IMG/VR virus record: IMGVR_UViG_3300033125_000723
Coordinates: 1-38,886 of that record
Length of the DNA: 38,886 bases
Direction: 5' to 3' (one strand)
Source of the DNA: a virus
Taxonomy: Duplodnaviria; Caudoviricetes
In this document: one piece after another, positions 1,072-17,900 of the stretch
How the letters are laid out: each line of letters begins with the position of its first letter
How positions within the stretch are numbered: position 1 is the first letter of the stretch
The notes under the pieces: generated by a model
What the model was told of the DNA's origin: nothing
What the model saw: the letters and a program-made list of their open reading frames with translations, nothing else
The model's database searches: none
Program-made: the position numbers and the translations under genes

Positions 1072-1332
1072 TTATTTTAAAGGCTGATTTCTATAGTAAC
1101 AATCATCAATTTCTTTTTGCATGGCCAAGGTGATTCCATACTTATACAAAACAGAGGGCCGTGTAACACTGCGTCGGTATTGGGGAATCTCAGAATCAAT
1201 TACAATATCAGTCGGGAGATGCTTATAACATCGGGTCTTAGTCTTATAACGTCCGGATATCGAATAATACACGGCAGGCCGTAAACAACAGTCACAGGTA
1301 TAGGCACTCTTGGCAGTCGAATAGTCTTCCAT
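1072..1332 (-). CDS. Hypothetical protein (Cys-containing)
   Basis: 86-aa ORF translationally coupled to the upstream gene. Confidence 0.65.
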   Translation of the reverse strand: MEDYSTAKSAYTCDCCLRPAVYYSISGRYKTKTRCYKHLPTDIVIDSEIPQYRRSVTRPSVLYKYGITLAMQKEIDDCYYRNQPLK

Positions 1333-1598
1333 TACTGATCCATGGTAAACAGAACTTGTGACTCATGAATATGTAGTTCACCAAATCCAATATCAGTACC
1401 CGTATGCCTGCGCATAAAGATATAATCACCCGGCTTACACAGTTCTTTATAGGTCAATTCTCCCACAAATAGAACCTTTGCTTTTTGCAATTCCGTCTCA
1501 AATCCTTCGGATATAATAATGCCCGATTGCGTGACCTGTTCGTTAGATACGGGTTCAACGATGAGTGTACCTTTGTTAGGTTTTTTTACTAAATTCAT
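1332..1598 (-). CDS. groES: GroES/Cpn10-like co-chaperonin
   Basis: KP..GTLIVEP...EQVTQSGIII mobile loop, AKVLFVG, KPGDYIF, HESQVL; 88 aa. Confidence 0.85.
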   Translation of the reverse strand: MNLVKKPNKGTLIVEPVSNEQVTQSGIIISEGFETELQKAKVLFVGELTYKELCKPGDYIFMRRHTGTDIGFGELHIHESQVLFTMDQ

Positions 1599-6096: not shown

Positions 6097-6534
6097 ATGA
6101 AGATGCTTGTCTGTTTGTTGTTGTCTCAATCCATGTCTGCCATGCAATCCCCCAAGGCACTACGCCAGTCTACCTTTGTGGATATGCCAGCCATAGAACG
6201 AGACAGGTCACAGGACTTTCCCGGTGTGATGGTAGTACATAGAGGTGATACCCCTTCTGCTGAATCCTTACGGGTACCTATTCCAAGAATAGACGCCTCA
6301 AGTGATCTGCACAGAGGCAAGAGACTGTCTCAAGAGATACATATACACATAGAAGATCGCAAGGATACGCCCAGCACCCCCGCTAATAGTACCGAGGGTT
6401 CTGAAGATACCATACCCAAGCACAGTCATAATCGCAGAATGGTTGTGAGTAATAGCCTGTCTGCTATAGTTGCTACATTGGTCACGGCAGGCGTGACGTT
6501 GGCGATACACTTTAGTAGTTGTAAGAAGGATTAA
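6097..6534 (+). CDS. Signal-peptide protein with C-terminal transmembrane helix
   Basis: MKMLVCLLLSQSMSAMQ N-terminus, disordered middle, hydrophobic AIVATLVTAGVTLAI. Confidence 0.7.
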   Translation: MKMLVCLLLSQSMSAMQSPKALRQSTFVDMPAIERDRSQDFPGVMVVHRGDTPSAESLRVPIPRIDASSDLHRGKRLSQEIHIHIEDRKDTPSTPANSTEGSEDTIPKHSHNRRMVVSNSLSAIVATLVTAGVTLAIHFSSCKKD

Positions 6535-6940
6535 AATTGGGAATGTATACCGAGTTGGTATTAAAATGCCGACTGAAAAACAAAGAAGAATTACCAGAAG
6601 AGGTTAAAGAGGTTTTGTTGTATTTATTTGGTGAAAATCACCCAGAAATGGATCAACAAAAGTTGCCTGAACATCCTTTCTTTAAAACACCACGGTGGCA
6701 TATGATTGGTAGTTGCTCAAGCTATTCTCATGTCCCCTATCCTTATAACTATCTTAATTTCGACTCTGGCAAACTATTTTCACGAAGTGATTTAAAGAAT
6801 TATGATAATGAAATTGAATTATTCAGCAATTGGTTGATGCCCTATTTAGATCCAGAAATGAATGATTTTATGGGGTGGATTTGGTCCGAGGGATCACCCA
6901 AGCCAAAATTTATACACTTTAGTAGCTGTAAGAAGGATTA
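6505..6940 (+). repeat. 29-bp direct repeat (6505-6533 and 6912-6940, 28/29 identical) bracketing gene 6537-6941
   Basis: atacactttagtagYtgtaagaaggatta; both genes end in IHFSSCKKD. Confidence 0.95.
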
Positions 6941-6941
6941 G
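6537..6941 (+). CDS. Phage hypothetical protein (MGMYTE-type N-terminus)
   Basis: 134-aa ORF with LKNYDNEIELF..WL.PY motif; start is TTG 6537 or ATG 6543. Confidence 0.75.
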   Translation: MGMYTELVLKCRLKNKEELPEEVKEVLLYLFGENHPEMDQQKLPEHPFFKTPRWHMIGSCSSYSHVPYPYNYLNFDSGKLFSRSDLKNYDNEIELFSNWLMPYLDPEMNDFMGWIWSEGSPKPKFIHFSSCKKD

Positions 6942-6943
6942 AA

Positions 6944-7555
6944 ATGAAATGTTTTACCAATAATTGTACTCAAGAAGCAATTGCGCCTCGTAGCATGTAT
7001 GGACTTGATAAAAAGGGAAACCCAACAAAAAAAACAGGGAACCCTATCTTGGATGAACAAAGATGGCTCTGTGCCGATCACTTAATGGAAAATCGCTGGC
7101 AGCAAGAGATGACGCAAACATGGTGCTTTTTCCTTTTAAAGCGATATATGGCAGTACTAAAAAATCTCTACCATACGCCCGATCATGACAAGGACCTTTT
7201 GAATGACATTGAAACATCGTTTTTACCGTGTGTGCGTGGTGAATGTCAAGGCTGCACCCAATACCCCAAACAATGTCATAATCGTGAGATCACTTTTGAT
7301 GAAAGGTATCAAGATTATATCGATGCATGGCACTATGCGCAGAGTGAATTAATAAAAAAAAGAAAATTGTCATGTACAAAACCTGACTGCGTGCTGTGCC
7401 ATGACGCGCAAAAGTGTATTTTCTCTGATTGCAAAGAATCAGCTTTTTATCCTGTGTTTAATGGAAGCCCGTTAATTACAGGATATCAATGCGAAGGCCA
7501 TCGTTATGCAAGGCCGAATGATAGGATGTTTCCAGTTTTTAAAGGAAAAGAATGA
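6944..7555 (+). CDS. Cys/His-rich hypothetical protein, probably zinc-binding
   Basis: Repeated CxxxxC and CxxH motifs. Confidence 0.7.
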   Translation: MKCFTNNCTQEAIAPRSMYGLDKKGNPTKKTGNPILDEQRWLCADHLMENRWQQEMTQTWCFFLLKRYMAVLKNLYHTPDHDKDLLNDIETSFLPCVRGECQGCTQYPKQCHNREITFDERYQDYIDAWHYAQSELIKKRKLSCTKPDCVLCHDAQKCIFSDCKESAFYPVFNGSPLITGYQCEGHRYARPNDRMFPVFKGKE

Positions 7556-10542: not shown

Positions 10543-10568
10543 CCCCCATGTAACAGTGGGGGATTTTT
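10543..10568 (+). terminator. Putative rho-independent terminator
   Basis: ccccca-tgtaacag-tggggg followed by attttt. Confidence 0.6.
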
Positions 10569-11046
10569 ATAAGGAATTAATATGTATAACTTTGGATTTT
10601 ATGTACTACAAACAGCGGCAAAACAACTTGAATGTGTTGCAAGCCAAAAGCAACTTTCTGTTTTGTATCCCTATCTACCCTATGCCTTGATACGTTTAAA
10701 TAATAACAAATTATTGCCAGTTAATAGGGCATATAAACCACTGGGTCTACTCCAAGCTGAATGGGTTGATTATGACAGTTTTGATTTTTGTGCCATTTCA
10801 GAAGACATAGTTGATTTGTCTGCTTTAAATAATGAATGTGGCCCCAGGAACTATTATTATTTTTATGAAGACGCAACATCACCCCGGCTTTCACAAAAAA
10901 ATATCAAGCGTTATGTCACTATCATAAAAAAAGCTTTAAAAATAAATTCTTTTAAATGTGAAGAAATACACAGCACTTCTGATTCTTATTTATGTTCTGA
11001 AAAATACTGTTGAACAAATTATGTCCATGTAACAGTGGGGGATTTT
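10546..11046 (+). repeat. Exact 22-bp direct repeat (10546-10567 and 11025-11046) bracketing gene 10582-11013
   Basis: ccatgtaacagtgggggatttt occurs twice. Confidence 0.95.
10582..11013 (+). CDS. AT-rich hypothetical protein (moron-like)
   Basis: AAGGA RBS; LPY...LLPVNRAYKPLG and YFYED motifs. Confidence 0.75.
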   Translation: MYNFGFYVLQTAAKQLECVASQKQLSVLYPYLPYALIRLNNNKLLPVNRAYKPLGLLQAEWVDYDSFDFCAISEDIVDLSALNNECGPRNYYYFYEDATSPRLSQKNIKRYVTIIKKALKINSFKCEEIHSTSDSYLCSEKYC

Positions 11047-13616: not shown

Positions 13617-13682
13617 TTGTTATAATTGTTATAAGTTAATTATCGCATAATGTTTGACATATGTAAAGCAATATGTAATAAT
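13617..13682 (+). promoter_or_regulatory. Divergent control region: tandem 9-bp repeat (ttgttataa x2, 13617-13634) and sigma70-like promoter TTGACA-17-AATAAT
   Basis: TTGACA at 13654-13659; TGn-AATAAT at 13674-13682. Confidence 0.6.
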
Positions 13683-13718
13683 GGTGTTAGTTGTAATAAT
13701 AATACCTATGAGGATGTC

Positions 13719-14000
13719 ATGGAAGAAACAAAACAATCACAATGGCTTATCACGGCTCAGCTTTGCTATCAAATTCAACAAGAACGAAAAAGCTTAGAGC
13801 AAAAAGAAAAAGAACTGTTTGCACAACTTAAGGCGTTATCTGAGAATAAGACTCGTCATGAAGGTGGCTTCATCTACATGAAAGAGATGAGAGCAGGCTC
13901 TATCGAGTATGCGGCTATTGATATACTCAAGGACGTCAATTTAGAGCTGTTTAGAAAGCCATCAGTAGAAACGTGGAAATTAATACGAGTTGCTGAATAG
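13719..14000 (+). CDS. Small protein resembling the C-terminal extension of YqaJ-type phage exonucleases
   Basis: GAGGA RBS before ATG 13719; coiled coil then RAGSIEYAAIDILKDVNLELFRKPSVETWKL; no nuclease domain. Confidence 0.5.
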   Translation: MEETKQSQWLITAQLCYQIQQERKSLEQKEKELFAQLKALSENKTRHEGGFIYMKEMRAGSIEYAAIDILKDVNLELFRKPSVETWKLIRVAE

Positions 14001-14059: not shown

Positions 14060-15589
14060 ATGATTATAAAAATGTATTCTGCCGTTACTATCGGCATCGA
14101 TTCGCGTATCATACCCATAGAAATTGATTCTGAGTCCTTTGCTCATTTTGCCCTTTCAGTGATCGGGTTATCTGAGTATTTTGCGACACAGATGAAAAAG
14201 CGTATAGAGATCGCTTGTAAGAATAATGGTATTGAGCTGCCACCGCTTAAGATTACGGTCAACCTGGGTCAATTTCAGGGGGATAAGAGTGATATTATCA
14301 TTCTTGATCTACCCATAGCCCTGGGGATTCTTAAGATACTCAGAATGTTTGATGACCCCCAGTCTATTATTAATCACTCGGTCATTGTGGGTGAGCTGGG
14401 TCTTGATGGGGTTGTTCGTCCCATCAAGGGAGCATTGTCCATTGCTATAGAATGTGCTGCGCAAAAGAAGGCTTCTTTAATTGTGCCCATGGCCAACACC
14501 AAGGAAGTAGAGATTGTTGAAGGCATCGATATGTATGGGGTCTATTCGCTCAAGCAGATTCTTGATAATCAGGAGATAAAGAAGGTAGCGCGTGCTACCG
14601 CACCACGAAAGCCACAGATACACGCCAAAGACTTTAGTGAAGTGCGTGGCCAATCACTTGCTAAAAGAGCTATGGTTATCGCTGCGGCAGGTCATCATAA
14701 TATTATCTTTATGGGGCCACCAGGGTCGGGTAAGACCATGCTTGCCGAGCGGTTGTGTACCATCATGCCACCCATGTCCTATGAAGAGTCATTAGAGACA
14801 TCACGTGTCTATTCATCGATGGGATCGTTTCATGATCTGATTATTGAACGGCCTTACCGTTCTCCCCATCATACCACTACATTGCCGGGACTTTTGGGCG
14901 GTGGTATCAATCCCGCTCCGGGTGAGATATCGCTGGCCAATAACGGGATATTGTTTCTTGATGAGTTTACGGAGTTTACCCCAAAGGTATTAGAATCACT
15001 TCGGCAGCCGTTAGAATCCCATCAAGTGAAGATTATACGAAGATCCCAGACTATTACCTATCCTGCTAAATTCTTGCTGGTAGCTGCCTTCAATCCGTGT
15101 CCTTGTGGCTATGCGGGTGATACCAAAAGAAAGTGTGAGTGTTCACGATTATTGATCGCTCACTATCTTGCCAAGATCTCAGGGCCAATCTTAGATCGGA
15201 TTGATGTGCAGGTAGCCTTACGTGCGGTTGAGTATACCGAAATAGAAAGTAAGACCCCCGAGCTCTCATCACAGCAGATGGCGCTTATGGTCTCAAAAGC
15301 AACTCTCATGCAAAATAAGCGGTTTGGTGACAGGCCGATACGCAACGGAACGATGACTGTTGCAGATATAGAACTGTGTTGTACATTAACTCCATCAGCG
15401 CAAGAGCTTATCAAGAAAGCGTTTGATGTTTTAAAACTATCCATGCGGGGATACCATAAAGTATTGCGTATTGCCCGTACCATCGCTGATCTTGAAGAAA
15501 GTGACCTGATACAGGACCATCACATAAAAGAATCACTCACCTATCGCGCCCTTGATCAATCCATAGCCAAGTTAAAGCAGTATGAATAA
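14060..15589 (+). CDS. comM: ComM/YifB-family AAA+ ATPase (MCM-like hexameric helicase; 'Mg-chelatase-like')
   Basis: ITVNL, DLPIALGIL, GELGLDG.VRPI.G, Walker A GPPGSGKT, RPYRSPHHT, PGEISLANNGILFLDE, NPCPCG, SGPILDRID, SMRGYHKVLRIARTIADL; AAGGA RBS before ATG 14060. Confidence 0.95.
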   Translation: MIIKMYSAVTIGIDSRIIPIEIDSESFAHFALSVIGLSEYFATQMKKRIEIACKNNGIELPPLKITVNLGQFQGDKSDIIILDLPIALGILKILRMFDDPQSIINHSVIVGELGLDGVVRPIKGALSIAIECAAQKKASLIVPMANTKEVEIVEGIDMYGVYSLKQILDNQEIKKVARATAPRKPQIHAKDFSEVRGQSLAKRAMVIAAAGHHNIIFMGPPGSGKTMLAERLCTIMPPMSYEESLETSRVYSSMGSFHDLIIERPYRSPHHTTTLPGLLGGGINPAPGEISLANNGILFLDEFTEFTPKVLESLRQPLESHQVKIIRRSQTITYPAKFLLVAAFNPCPCGYAGDTKRKCECSRLLIAHYLAKISGPILDRIDVQVALRAVEYTEIESKTPELSSQQMALMVSKATLMQNKRFGDRPIRNGTMTVADIELCCTLTPSAQELIKKAFDVLKLSMRGYHKVLRIARTIADLEESDLIQDHHIKESLTYRALDQSIAKLKQYE

Positions 15590-16591
15590 CGAATACACAA
15601 TAAAATTTGTTCCAACTAAACAGCCAACTGCAAAGCATAACGGGCCTGCTCCATTTGGATATTGCTGGAAAAGTTATCCAGAAAAAAAAATTAAGGGGAA
15701 AAGAGTTAATCCGAGAGCAGAGATAATAATTGATGATAAAAAAGCAGTTATTTTACAAGATATTTTCCAATTATATGCTTTAAACTTATACAATTATATC
15801 TCGTTAGCTGATGAAATTAATAAAAAATATAAAACTCGTTTTTCTCATAAATATATAAAAAAAATTCTACATAATAAGTTTTACAATGGATATTTTTTAA
15901 ATGCATTACCACATGATTATCCCAAAATAGTACCAGATGAAATTTTTAAAAAAGTAGAAAAAATTCTAAAATTGAGAAAAAAATTTGGTACCAACAAAAT
16001 ATTGAAAAATAAATACAAATATCAGGGAGTATTGTCATGCTATTATTGCAATACAACTCTCTCAAGACAACTGCATAAAGGGAGATCAATTTATCGATGT
16101 CTTGGTTATAAAAATGTTTCAAAAAAAAATCATGCCAAAAAAAGCTTTCTTGAAAAAGAACTGGATTTAGAATTTAAATATTTTTTTAAAAAAATATTTT
16201 CTCAAAGCGATCTAAGGCATGCAATTCCTGATTCATTAAAAAAAGAGTCATTAAGCATCGAAGAAACACAAAAATTATTCAAAATGCTTTTTGAGCACAT
16301 TAGCATCGATAGCAATATGAATATTACCTATGTTTTATGGGATTTTAAAAATGATAATACCCTTACGGATGTTGCCGCTCAATCGCTAGAAAAACCCCAA
16401 AAAATAGTCGATGAAACTGCATCATTAGAGGAAAAGATCATTCACTTATCTGCAATCCCACAATCGATTGATTCATTGGCTGAATTGTTAAATAGACCAA
16501 TCTCAGATATACAAATTGCTCTAATAGACCTCGAGCTACAGGGAAAAATCGAACAACACATTGAGGGCTATTGGAAATCAGTATGAATAAC
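15578..16591 (+). repeat. 13-bp direct repeat cagtatgaataac (15578-15590 and 16579-16591) bracketing gene 15582-16586
   Basis: Exact match; each copy spans a stop/start junction. Confidence 0.85.
15582..16586 (+). CDS. Serine-recombinase DNA-binding domains (recombinase + Zn ribbon) fused to a DprA-type winged helix; no catalytic domain
   Basis: APFGY, ILHNKFYNG, PKIVPDEIFKKV, YQGVLSCYYC..YRC; C-terminus PQSIDSLAELLNRPISDIQIALIDLELQGKIEQHIEGYW. Confidence 0.8.
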   Translation: MNNEYTIKFVPTKQPTAKHNGPAPFGYCWKSYPEKKIKGKRVNPRAEIIIDDKKAVILQDIFQLYALNLYNYISLADEINKKYKTRFSHKYIKKILHNKFYNGYFLNALPHDYPKIVPDEIFKKVEKILKLRKKFGTNKILKNKYKYQGVLSCYYCNTTLSRQLHKGRSIYRCLGYKNVSKKNHAKKSFLEKELDLEFKYFFKKIFSQSDLRHAIPDSLKKESLSIEETQKLFKMLFEHISIDSNMNITYVLWDFKNDNTLTDVAAQSLEKPQKIVDETASLEEKIIHLSAIPQSIDSLAELLNRPISDIQIALIDLELQGKIEQHIEGYWKSV

Positions 16592-17611
16592 CAAAAAAAA
16601 CAATTTAAGAACATATATTCAAAAATGGCTTCGTTCGAAGCAGTGGAAAATAAGAAAGAAAGATTAGAGCAAGGTCTGCATACCAGCACAGCACCCTTAG
16701 GTTACAAATGGGAGCGTATTGGAAGCCGACGGCGGGGATATTCGGTATTAGCCGTTGATAAATATACGTCCGTTATCGTGAAAGATATATTTCGCGCCTA
16801 CGCAACGGGAGCGTATAACTATGAAGCGATGAAAGAGTATATAAATAAGCGCTGGGATATGAGAAAAAGTAAATTCTCTACTCAGACCCTTTTATGCAAT
16901 CCCTTCTATCGTGGCATCTTAAAAACGAAATTCGGCCAAGCGCCCCATGCATATGAACGTATTATTGATGATGCTCTGTTTGATAAGGTGCAAGAGGTCA
17001 TGAAAAATAGACAAGTGACCTATGCACGCGCAAAACAGAACACCAAGAAAAAAGAATATTTATATAGTGGCCTGTTAAAATGTGGCTCATGTGGATGCCA
17101 GATCACCGTAGAAAAGCATAAAGGCATAATCTATTATCATTGCACGCAATCGAAAGGTAAGCATAAAGCGCCATGGATTAATCAGGCTGCTCTTACGGTT
17201 CTTATAAGAGATAGAATAATTCCCTATCTACAAGATGCTCAAACACTAAATTGGGGCATTCCTGTATACCCTGAGATACTCAAGGATCAAGAGCAGACTC
17301 GTACATTGCTGTGTTTCCTGTTTAAGAAGATTACTTTCAATCAAGACAAAACACTTACCGTTACCCCATGGTCTGCGCAAGAGTTAGCATCATTACAAAA
17401 ACGTAAAGAGAAACCTGTCGATATGGGTTCTGTTGATCCGCTGGGTGATCTCAATACTAATATTCTTTTACTGTGTCATCTGCCGCAATCGATAGATTTC
17501 TTGTGTCTTACTTTAGAAAAGGATCTGGATACCATACAAACAGCTCTTATTGATTTACAGTTGGATGGCAAAATAGACCAAAACCTCGAAGGATCATGGG
17601 TTATTTTATAG
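16583..17611 (+). CDS. Paralogue: recombinase + Zn ribbon + DprA-type winged helix; no catalytic domain
   Basis: APLGY, LLCNPFYRG, ERIIDDALFDKVQ, YSGLLKCGSCG..YYHC; C-terminus PQSIDFLCLTLEKDLDTIQTALIDLQLDGKIDQNLEGSW; ATGA-coupled start at 16583. Confidence 0.82.
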   Translation: MNNQKKQFKNIYSKMASFEAVENKKERLEQGLHTSTAPLGYKWERIGSRRRGYSVLAVDKYTSVIVKDIFRAYATGAYNYEAMKEYINKRWDMRKSKFSTQTLLCNPFYRGILKTKFGQAPHAYERIIDDALFDKVQEVMKNRQVTYARAKQNTKKKEYLYSGLLKCGSCGCQITVEKHKGIIYYHCTQSKGKHKAPWINQAALTVLIRDRIIPYLQDAQTLNWGIPVYPEILKDQEQTRTLLCFLFKKITFNQDKTLTVTPWSAQELASLQKRKEKPVDMGSVDPLGDLNTNILLLCHLPQSIDFLCLTLEKDLDTIQTALIDLQLDGKIDQNLEGSWVIL

Positions 17612-17696
17612 CAATAATCCGCTTGTTTGGGGAACATTTCCAGTCCCTATGGACATAAACTTGTATAAATTTTAAAAAACGTAGTAAGGTTGAGTC

Positions 17697-17900
17697 ATGA
17701 AGAACGATATGCCACAGATATTAGAACGCTATGGGGACCCGAGTATCTTTGATACAGCGCCCTATTTAAGCGTGTGTATTAATACCTCTGATAATACCGT
17801 ATGGGTACAGATGGCCAAAGATGAAGATGCGGTACAATGGATGGCATTTGATTCTATTGAAGAAGCATTATTATTTGCAGAAAATAAGAAAAAAATTTAA
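17697..17900 (+). CDS. Hypothetical protein
   Basis: 67-aa ORF with AAGG RBS. Confidence 0.65.
   Translation: MKNDMPQILERYGDPSIFDTAPYLSVCINTSDNTVWVQMAKDEDAVQWMAFDSIEEALLFAENKKKI

What the first reader, a model, noticed from the sequence alone, without database searches (positions are those of the whole stretch)
15582..17611. Serine-integrase derivatives lacking both the catalytic domain and the synapsis coiled coil
Both proteins begin just before the P-x-G-Y motif that follows helix E, so no Y-x-R-x-S resolvase domain is present, and none is encoded elsewhere in the window. After the Zn ribbon, the long coiled coil is replaced by only about 20-25 residues before the closing 'L...F..I' strand. 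The same deletions and winged-helix fusion occur in two diverged open paralogues, which argues for a selected DNA-binding architecture rather than a pseudogene. Two versions could recognise two different sites or form a heterodimer.
Basis: partly seen in the sequence, partly recalled or inferred. Interest (0 to 1): 0.75.

Follow-up and report, generated by a model that had tools for sequence, protein, structure and literature searches.

The report
Phage integrase-derived loader for ComM helicase
A phage has fused the DNA-binding half of a serine integrase to the small domain that bacteria use to recruit the DNA-uptake helicase ComM, and it encodes its own ComM next door, so these proteins likely load that helicase onto chosen double-stranded DNA instead of recombining it.

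Summary
In a near-complete 38.9-kb P22-portal phage, likely infecting Babelota (Dependentiae), two tandem genes encode the recombinase (RD) and zinc-ribbon (ZD) domains of a large serine recombinase. They lack the catalytic domain and coiled coil and end in a winged helix (WH). No resolvase domain is in the genome, and no indel shows in independent samples.

The WH matches the C-terminal domain of Babelota DprA, a domain known to recruit ComM, and an intact comM overlaps gene 1. I aligned 45 such proteins, plus RD-repeat variants. All 7 phages with context have comM adjacent, and 0 of 21 near-complete comM-less relatives carry one. A complex model places the WH on ComM's C-terminal domain (ipSAE 0.89, best control 0.29). 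Partner-less phage ComMs have lost that surface.

Best reading: a likely sequence-directed dsDNA adaptor that loads a private phage ComM. It is accessory (2 of 23 unselected relatives have comM) and fills the operon slot held by ERF, or ERF plus DnaB. The DNA target and purpose are unknown; recombination or branch migration is most likely. I found no description in print.

The parts
14060..15589 (+). Phage comM (YifB/Mg-chelatase-family hexameric helicase, 509 aa from ATG 14060); Walker A/B, Zn motif, Arg finger and sensor-2 intact; overlaps P1 by 8 nt
   Evidence: Pfam Mg_chelatase E 5e-86; PDB 8rxd ComM E 9e-97; motifs; 46-50% to the best-listed Babelota ComMs
15582..16586 (+). P1: RD + ZD without coiled coil + DprA-type WH, 334 aa; Zn ligands C153, C156, C173, H184; 28.9% GC against 42.1% for the genome
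16419..16583 (+). P1 winged helix (residues 280-334), motif QIALIDLELQG; not modelled with ComM
   Evidence: Pfam DprA_WH E 4.4e-8
16583..17611 (+). P2: helix-E remnant + RD + ZD without coiled coil + DprA-type WH, 342 aa; Zn ligands C167, C170, C187, H194
16694..17368 (+). P2 recombinase and zinc-ribbon domains (residues 38-262), predicted dsDNA reader
   Evidence: best fold match LI integrase CTD-DNA 4kis, Z 13.4, rmsd 14.4, 226 aligned; Foldseek 6dnw E 6e-11
17444..17608 (+). P2 winged helix (residues 288-342), predicted ComM-binding; contacts Q319, I323, D324, Q326, L327
   Evidence: complex model ipSAE 0.89, best control 0.29; 45-47% identity to best Babelota DprA WH
13650..14000 (+). 116-aa gene marking the upstream edge of the operon slot; homologues lie upstream of ERF in comM-less relatives
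   Evidence: HMM from G284/G278/G280, E 7e-26
17697..17900 (+). 67-aa gene marking the downstream edge of the slot; homologues follow ERF (or ERF-dnaB) in relatives
   Evidence: HMM from 7 relatives, E 6e-10

Best explanation
P1 and P2 are integrase-derived proteins with no catalytic domain whose DprA-type winged helix is predicted to bind the ComM helicase encoded by the overlapping upstream gene, so they likely load that helicase onto specific double-stranded phage DNA. Shown: the domain architecture; no recombinase catalytic domain in the genome; WH likeness to Babelota DprA; fixed adjacency to an intact comM. Predicted: WH docking on ComM's C-terminal Mg-chelatase domain. Inferred from integrase biochemistry: RD+ZD bind about 25 bp as monomers. 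Inferred by analogy: host ComM reaches D-loops through DprA on incoming ssDNA, so the phage swapped DprA's ssDNA-binding part for a dsDNA reader and carries a matched ComM because recruitment is species-specific. Least certain: the purpose is likely branch migration or unwinding in the phage's ERF/RecT-SSB-RusA recombination pathway (circularisation or recombination-dependent replication). About 0.8 for the adaptor step and about 0.45 for the whole including this purpose.
For: (1) Family WH consensus is nearly that of 54 DprA proteins, largely Babelota, and is acidic. (2) DprA WH binds and recruits ComM, is not DNA-binding in H. pylori, and is species-specific (bioRxiv 10.1101/2024.10.21.619469, parts 1-4 of 6 read). 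(3) comM is adjacent in 7 of 7 phages with context, in tandem (window, L280, L284) or divergent (L050, L207, L276, L278). L050 and L207 were found without using comM; the other four through comM. Host comM had no dprA within 1.5 kb in 30 loci (read by eye). (4) Adaptor in 3 of 5 comM-positive and 0 of 21 comM-negative genomes at least 90% complete. (5) A relative has deleted comM and adaptor together. (6) Complex model: ipSAE 0.89 in three runs, best of 3 controls 0.29, runs agree in at least 93% of contacts, partner pLDDT at least 89; this mark was reached by 116 of 157 solved and 2 of 215 mismatched pairs. The interface uses WH I323/Q326/L327 and ComM L457/R495 (numbered from Ile2), which I infer from motif spacing to be the tested V. 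cholerae L350/E353/L354 and L455/R497. (7) R495 and the C-terminal helix are kept in 7 of 7 partnered phage ComMs and 6 of 6 hosts shown, and lost in 3 of 3 partner-less ones. (8) LI integrase lacking the coiled coil binds att DNA at wild-type affinity (PMC3783163 passages). (9) The slot holds ERF or RecT in relatives, and ERF-dnaB in G284.
Against: No DNA target site was found. The complex model may pass by likeness to the known DprA-ComM pair, so it shows likeness, not binding; only P2's WH was modelled. The 3 partner-less ComMs form one clade (one event) and the partnered ones two clades; G277 and G289 are near-identical. Both WH sets were partly selected on WH motifs. Only 7 of over 50 family proteins have known context. 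The module is dispensable: comM in 2 of 23 genomes picked by a structural gene. Recombination intermediates are not site-specific, which fits poorly with a sequence-specific reader. In the window ERF lies 9 kb away. No expression data.
Confidence: 0.45

Rival explanations
1. Same adaptor, but for replication: RD-ZD binds beside the phage origin and loads ComM, an MCM-like ring, as a private unwinding helicase with the O-like Rep protein. Two paralogues could load two rings in opposite directions.
For: DnaB fills the same slot in one comM-less relative (G284). comM lies directly upstream of a putative Rep gene in G002 (no PHROG hit for that gene), and O-like Rep hits occur in G004 and L280. Sequence-specific binding suits an origin.
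Against: 22 of the 29 genomes tested show neither DnaB nor full-length comM, so most likely use host DnaB. No primase was annotated among the 33 window ORFs scanned, and ComM is not known to couple to DnaG (own knowledge). No iteron array found.
Confidence: 0.2
2. Counter-defence or anti-competitor device: RD-ZD reads att-like sites of resident serine-integrase islands, or protein/R-loop roadblocks on phage DNA, and brings ComM to unwind or block them.
For: 90 of 261 Babelota genomes hold related recombinases, mostly beside tRNA genes in the loci listed. RD-ZD diverges faster than the WH (P2 vs P0006: RD 43/113, WH 43/55). RD occurs in arrays of 1-5. Distribution is patchy.
Against: No target shown; no tRNA or att-like match between the window and host loci; the gene slot is recombination/replication.
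Confidence: 0.13
3. Inhibitor of host transformation: the WH mimics DprA and traps host ComM on DNA, or mixed hexamers poison it.
For: Mobile elements often disable comM (review PMC12378983 passages; also 17 or so viral loci with a recombinase beside a comM fragment). The WH is host-like. The N-terminal domain of partnered ComMs is unusually diverged (26-45% to a host ComM, against 56-61% for partner-less and 61-80% for hosts).
Against: The phage ComM keeps every ATPase motif and the WH-binding surface. An inhibitor needs no own helicase. No integrase in 29 genomes and no adaptor among the 150 listed of 159 host-chromosome matches, so there is little prophage to protect.
Confidence: 0.1
4. Transcription regulators of the early operon, with the WH as a DNA-binding or dimerising module (closest to the first reader's view).
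For: Divergent, closely spaced arrangement with comM in 4 phages; WH fold matches ArsR/MarR-like proteins at Z 8-9.
Against: The WH is acidic and keeps the DprA ComM-binding helix; tandem arrangement in 3 phages; ComM's interface co-varies with adaptor presence.
Confidence: 0.07
5. Decaying integrase remnant, or one half of a split integrase.
For: Long branches; P1 is AT-rich and has no close homologue; one relative has deleted the cassette.
Against: 45 open proteins with conserved Zn ligands; no catalytic partner in 29 genomes; no indels; 7 synonymous against 4 non-synonymous codon changes in 124 codons (weak).
Confidence: 0.03

Closest known systems
Large serine recombinase C-terminal domain (Listeria LI/A118 integrase, PDB 4kis/6dnw; Bxb1, phiC31)
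   Same: RD + linker + Zn ribbon with four ligands and closing helix-hairpin; best fold matches; closest parents are full-length recombinases such as P0008 (38%) and Babelota chromosomal ones.
   Different: No catalytic domain, coiled coil removed, DprA-type WH added, RD repeated up to five times in variants; cannot recombine.
DprA-ComM recruitment in natural transformation (bioRxiv 10.1101/2024.10.21.619469; parts 1-4 of 6 read)
   Same: Same WH family, predicted same ComM surface, matched ComM partner.
   Different: DprA's ssDNA-binding core is replaced by a dsDNA reader; both genes are phage-borne and adjacent; not part of competence.
TnsF of Tn6022 (PMC10293859; passages read)
   Same: A catalytically inactivated site-specific recombinase reused as a DNA target selector for a multi-protein machine.
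   Different: TnsF is tyrosine-recombinase-derived, works through TniQ in transposition and targets the comM gene; here a serine-recombinase derivative is predicted to recruit ComM protein, with no transposase.
Serine-integrase elements inserted in comM
   Same: Recombinase domains next to comM sequence; many such loci.
   Different: There comM is broken and the integrase is whole; here comM is whole and the integrase is cut down.
Lambda O-P / P22 DnaB-type replication modules (recalled)
   Same: A phage early operon with an interchangeable helicase slot (DnaB in G284).
   Different: ComM is not a known replicative helicase, and the loader is unrelated to P or DnaC.

Membership tests
Large serine recombinase | N-terminal resolvase domain with catalytic serine | tested here: not met
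   (Resolvase not among families hit in 45 members)
Large serine recombinase | Recombinase domain PF07508 | tested here: met
   44 of 45 members; both window proteins
Large serine recombinase | Zn ribbon with four ligands | tested here: met
   absent in the RD-repeat variants
Large serine recombinase | Coiled coil inserted in the ZD | tested here: not met
   span 40-63 aa (5 of 45 measurable) against 138-155; model shows no long hairpin
Large serine recombinase | Sequence-specific att-site binding | not testable with these tools
   no candidate site found
DprA | Rossmann-fold ssDNA-binding core | tested here: not met
   no such Pfam hit in 45 members
DprA | C-terminal WH (PF17782) | tested here: met
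   15 of 45 members by Pfam at E<=0.01, P1 above cut-off; consensus match to 54 DprA proteins
DprA | WH binds ComM C-terminal domain | tested here: inconclusive
   model supports it (0.89 vs best control 0.29) but does not show binding
ComM/YifB (neighbour gene) | Lon-like N-domain, MCM-type AAA+ motifs, Zn motif, Mg-chelatase C domain | tested here: met
ComM/YifB (neighbour gene) | Hexameric helicase / branch-migration activity | not testable with these tools
   motifs intact only
TnsF-type target selector | Tyrosine recombinase-derived domain working with TniQ and a transposase | tested here: not met
   PF00589 in 0 of 29 genomes; domains are serine-recombinase-derived

The most novel reading that the evidence does not exclude
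Babelota phages have built a modular, re-targetable helicase-delivery system: serine-integrase DNA-reading domains (single, with Zn ribbon, or as arrays of up to five repeats) fused to the DprA recruiting handle load a phage-domesticated ComM at chosen dsDNA sites. It would be the first use of ComM outside competence-type DNA uptake, possibly as an origin-loaded or anti-island helicase.
Probability: 0.55. Interest if true: 0.85.

Novelty: categorically new. Interest (0 to 1): 0.78.

Why it matters
ComM was thought to act only on incoming transforming DNA because DprA loads it. A phage chimera that redirects the same handle to duplex DNA would show that loading alone sets ComM's specificity, and it gives a direct way to test loading and directionality with a defined site. 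It is also a natural dead serine-integrase reader, including tandem RD arrays, which speaks to how RD and ZD read DNA and to programmable helicase targeting. The parts are all known; their combination and the phage-borne ComM module were not found in 8 literature searches, of which aimed at it.

Tried and rejected
Single-protein scan of viral contigs with P2 found nothing. A sequence search of P2 against PDB was blank; fold and profile searches worked. P1 has no word-index homologue but itself. The first coiled-coil span measure was discarded because the alignment slid into the coiled coil; one search replaced it. In 261 Babelota genomes the only WH-length match (G250) is a frameshifted full integrase; 9 of 159 matches were not listed and at most 8 candidates per genome were scored. 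No comM fragment lay beside 30 host recombinase loci, so origin from a comM-inserted element is unsupported. No tRNA, att-like match or iteron array in the window. Context of the SF2 helicase-RD-ZD fusions was not found. The ESM Atlas gave only generic recombinase clusters below 0.9. No RNA holder listed. The RD-ZD tree does not resolve whether the family has one origin. Which ComM domain binds YraN was not found in the passages of PMC13663708. A WH-only scan of host genomes was not run. Supplements of the bioRxiv DprA-ComM paper (Fig. S3 alignment, Dataset S1) were not seen and bear on the residue mapping.
Full report
Setting. The window is one virus record of 38,886 bases, 100% complete by CheckV. 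It carries terminase, a P22-like portal split across the ends, capsid, RusA, ERF and SSB. The host is inferred to be Babelota (Dependentiae). The phage ComM groups with Babelota ComMs at SH-aLRT 100 in a quick tree of 40 rows (hosts were the 22 extracted from the 30 best phylum hits). The WH motif scan of genomes returned many Dependentiae/Babeliales dprA loci.

Observation. P1 (15582-16586) and P2 (16583-17611) are 31% identical. Both have Recombinase and Zn-ribbon domains and no Resolvase. The P2 model (pLDDT 73, pTM 0.42, 6-row alignment) matches serine-integrase C-terminal domains best, with high rmsd, likely from domain placement, and residues 287-342 match winged helices. No serine or tyrosine recombinase catalytic domain was found in 29 related genomes. 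The coiled-coil interval is 138-155 aa in 30 parents and 40-63 aa in the 5 of 45 members where the closing motif was detectable. Contigs of three other runs show no indels.

Family. A profile search of 1.84 billion representatives listed 150 hits. From these and I hand-picked 45 proteins of 298-454 aa with the full architecture (mean column identity 25%); one partial protein was left out. The same list held nine proteins with 2-5 tandem RDs and no Zn ribbon, most ending in a WH-like tail, and three SF2 helicase-RD fusions. The list was cut at 150, so the family is likely larger.

The winged helix. Its consensus (LEDPILKLC..PQSIDEL...QSALFDLQLEGKIEQ...GLW) is nearly that of 54 DprA proteins; both are acidic, while the rest of the protein is basic. 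The DprA set was chosen by this motif, so agreement at motif positions is partly built in; agreement upstream of the motif is not. The bioRxiv paper 10.1101/2024.10.21.619469 (parts 1-4 of 6 read) shows that the DprA WH binds ComM's Mg-chelatase domain, recruits it to recombination sites and is species-specific, and that E353Q is tolerated. Most family members have Q at the position I infer to be equivalent.

The neighbour. An intact comM overlaps P1. Six other phages with an adaptor all have comM adjacent: divergent in L050, L207, L276 and L278, tandem in L280 (RD-WH) and L284 (RD-RD-WH). Two were found independently of comM. A further relative keeps 74 codons of comM joined out of frame to the last 28 codons of a WH. 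Of 26 genomes at least 90% complete, 5 have comM and 3 have an adaptor, all three among the comM-positive. Three of the 26 were added because of comM. Among the 23 picked by a structural gene and length, comM is in 2 (one of which seeded the alignment) and an adaptor in 1. Host comM is present in 230 of 261 Babelota genomes and showed no dprA within 1.5 kb in 30 loci, so the pairing is likely phage-made.

Binding model. ComM 180-508 with P2 WH 282-342 scored ipSAE 0.89 against a best control of 0.29; runs agree in at least 93% of contacts and partner pLDDT is at least 89; 116 of 157 solved and 2 of 215 mismatched pairs reach the mark. The pass may reflect likeness to the known DprA-ComM pair. 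The only PDB match to ComM lists ComM alone as molecule. Three phage ComMs without an adaptor have R495K and lack the C-terminal helix, whereas 7 of 7 partnered ones keep both. The three are one clade, so this is one event. They are followed by other proteins with HNH-associated or Zn-finger/HTH repeats.

Slot. The cassette lies between two small genes that flank ERF in relatives. In G284 the slot holds ERF and dnaB, the only DnaB in 29 genomes. ERF or RecT follows comM closely in L003, L277, L281 and L280.

Mechanism. Integrase CTDs bind 25-bp half-sites, deleting the coiled coil leaves affinity unchanged, and the CTD without it is monomeric (PMC3783163 and PMC5499577, passages only). The natural deletions thus remove catalysis and synapsis and keep DNA reading. 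The added WH would recruit the matched ComM. I put the adaptor step at about 0.8. Purpose is open: recombination or branch migration 0.45, origin loading 0.2, counter-defence 0.13, transformation inhibition 0.1, regulator 0.07, remnant 0.03. No target site was found, and the module is dispensable in most relatives.

Comparison. It is not a serine recombinase (catalytic domain and coiled coil not met) and not DprA (core not met); it likely works like DprA's recruiting arm on a new DNA reader. The nearest conceptual precedent is TnsF (PMC10293859, passages). Searches for a phage ComM or this fusion gave no relevant paper in their listings. The library lacks most subscription journals. Earlier scan notes concern integrases inserted in comM, the opposite arrangement; some searches were blank.

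Verdict. Real, selected, and apparently undescribed. Interest 0.78.

Noticed in passing
proteins P0127, P0131, P0138, P0140 (= L284:7505-8599), P0141, P0152, P0165, P0174, P0191; L280:7499-8110: Arrays of 1-5 recombinase domains without Zn ribbon, most ending in a WH-like tail: a natural repeat-type DNA reader built from integrase RDs.
   Followed up: partly
   Followed up: partly
L003:7494-8276, L281:7497-8858, L277:4514-5581: Phage comMs that lost the WH-binding surface are followed by HNH-associated or Zn-finger/HTH repeat proteins with short acidic helices; possibly unrelated adaptors.
   Followed up: partly
L001:2812-3120: Deletion scar joining the start of comM out of frame to the last 28 codons of an adaptor WH.
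   Followed up: yes
window 15582-16586: P1 is 28.9% GC (GC3 22%) against 39-45% for its neighbours, suggesting separate acquisition rather than recent tandem duplication.
   Followed up: partly
window 14060-14600 and partnered ComMs: The N-terminal Lon-like domain is much more diverged in adaptor-partnered phage ComMs (26-45%) than in partner-less or host ComMs; may reflect loss of a host partner such as YraN.
   Followed up: partly
viral contigs L355-L434: A large family of integrase-less P22-portal phages likely of Babelota (132 confirmed matches in a partial scan); my literature search for Babeliales phages gave no relevant paper.
   Followed up: partly
L301, L303-L305, L316, L325, L326, L328, L338, L340, L346, L351: A second, distant group of full-length comM-like genes (29-34%) on other viral contigs, with no RD or WH hit nearby.
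   Followed up: no
L209-L238: Babelota full-length serine recombinases mostly sit beside tRNA genes (Asp, Glu, Gln, Arg clusters).
   Followed up: no
window 10546-10567 and 11025-11046; 6505-6539 and 6912-6946: A perfect 22-bp direct repeat flanks the 143-aa ORF 10582-11013, and a 35-bp repeat flanks ORF 6537-6941; look like gene-cassette insertion marks.
   Followed up: no
window 17599-17619 (run X6): A related strain has 457 other bases in place of 19 at the end of P2, and 5% divergence over P2's RD-ZD.
   Followed up: no
window 1332-1598; L050:5317-6471: A GroES-like gene in the window and an RtcB-like gene (by eye) in relative L050.
   Followed up: no
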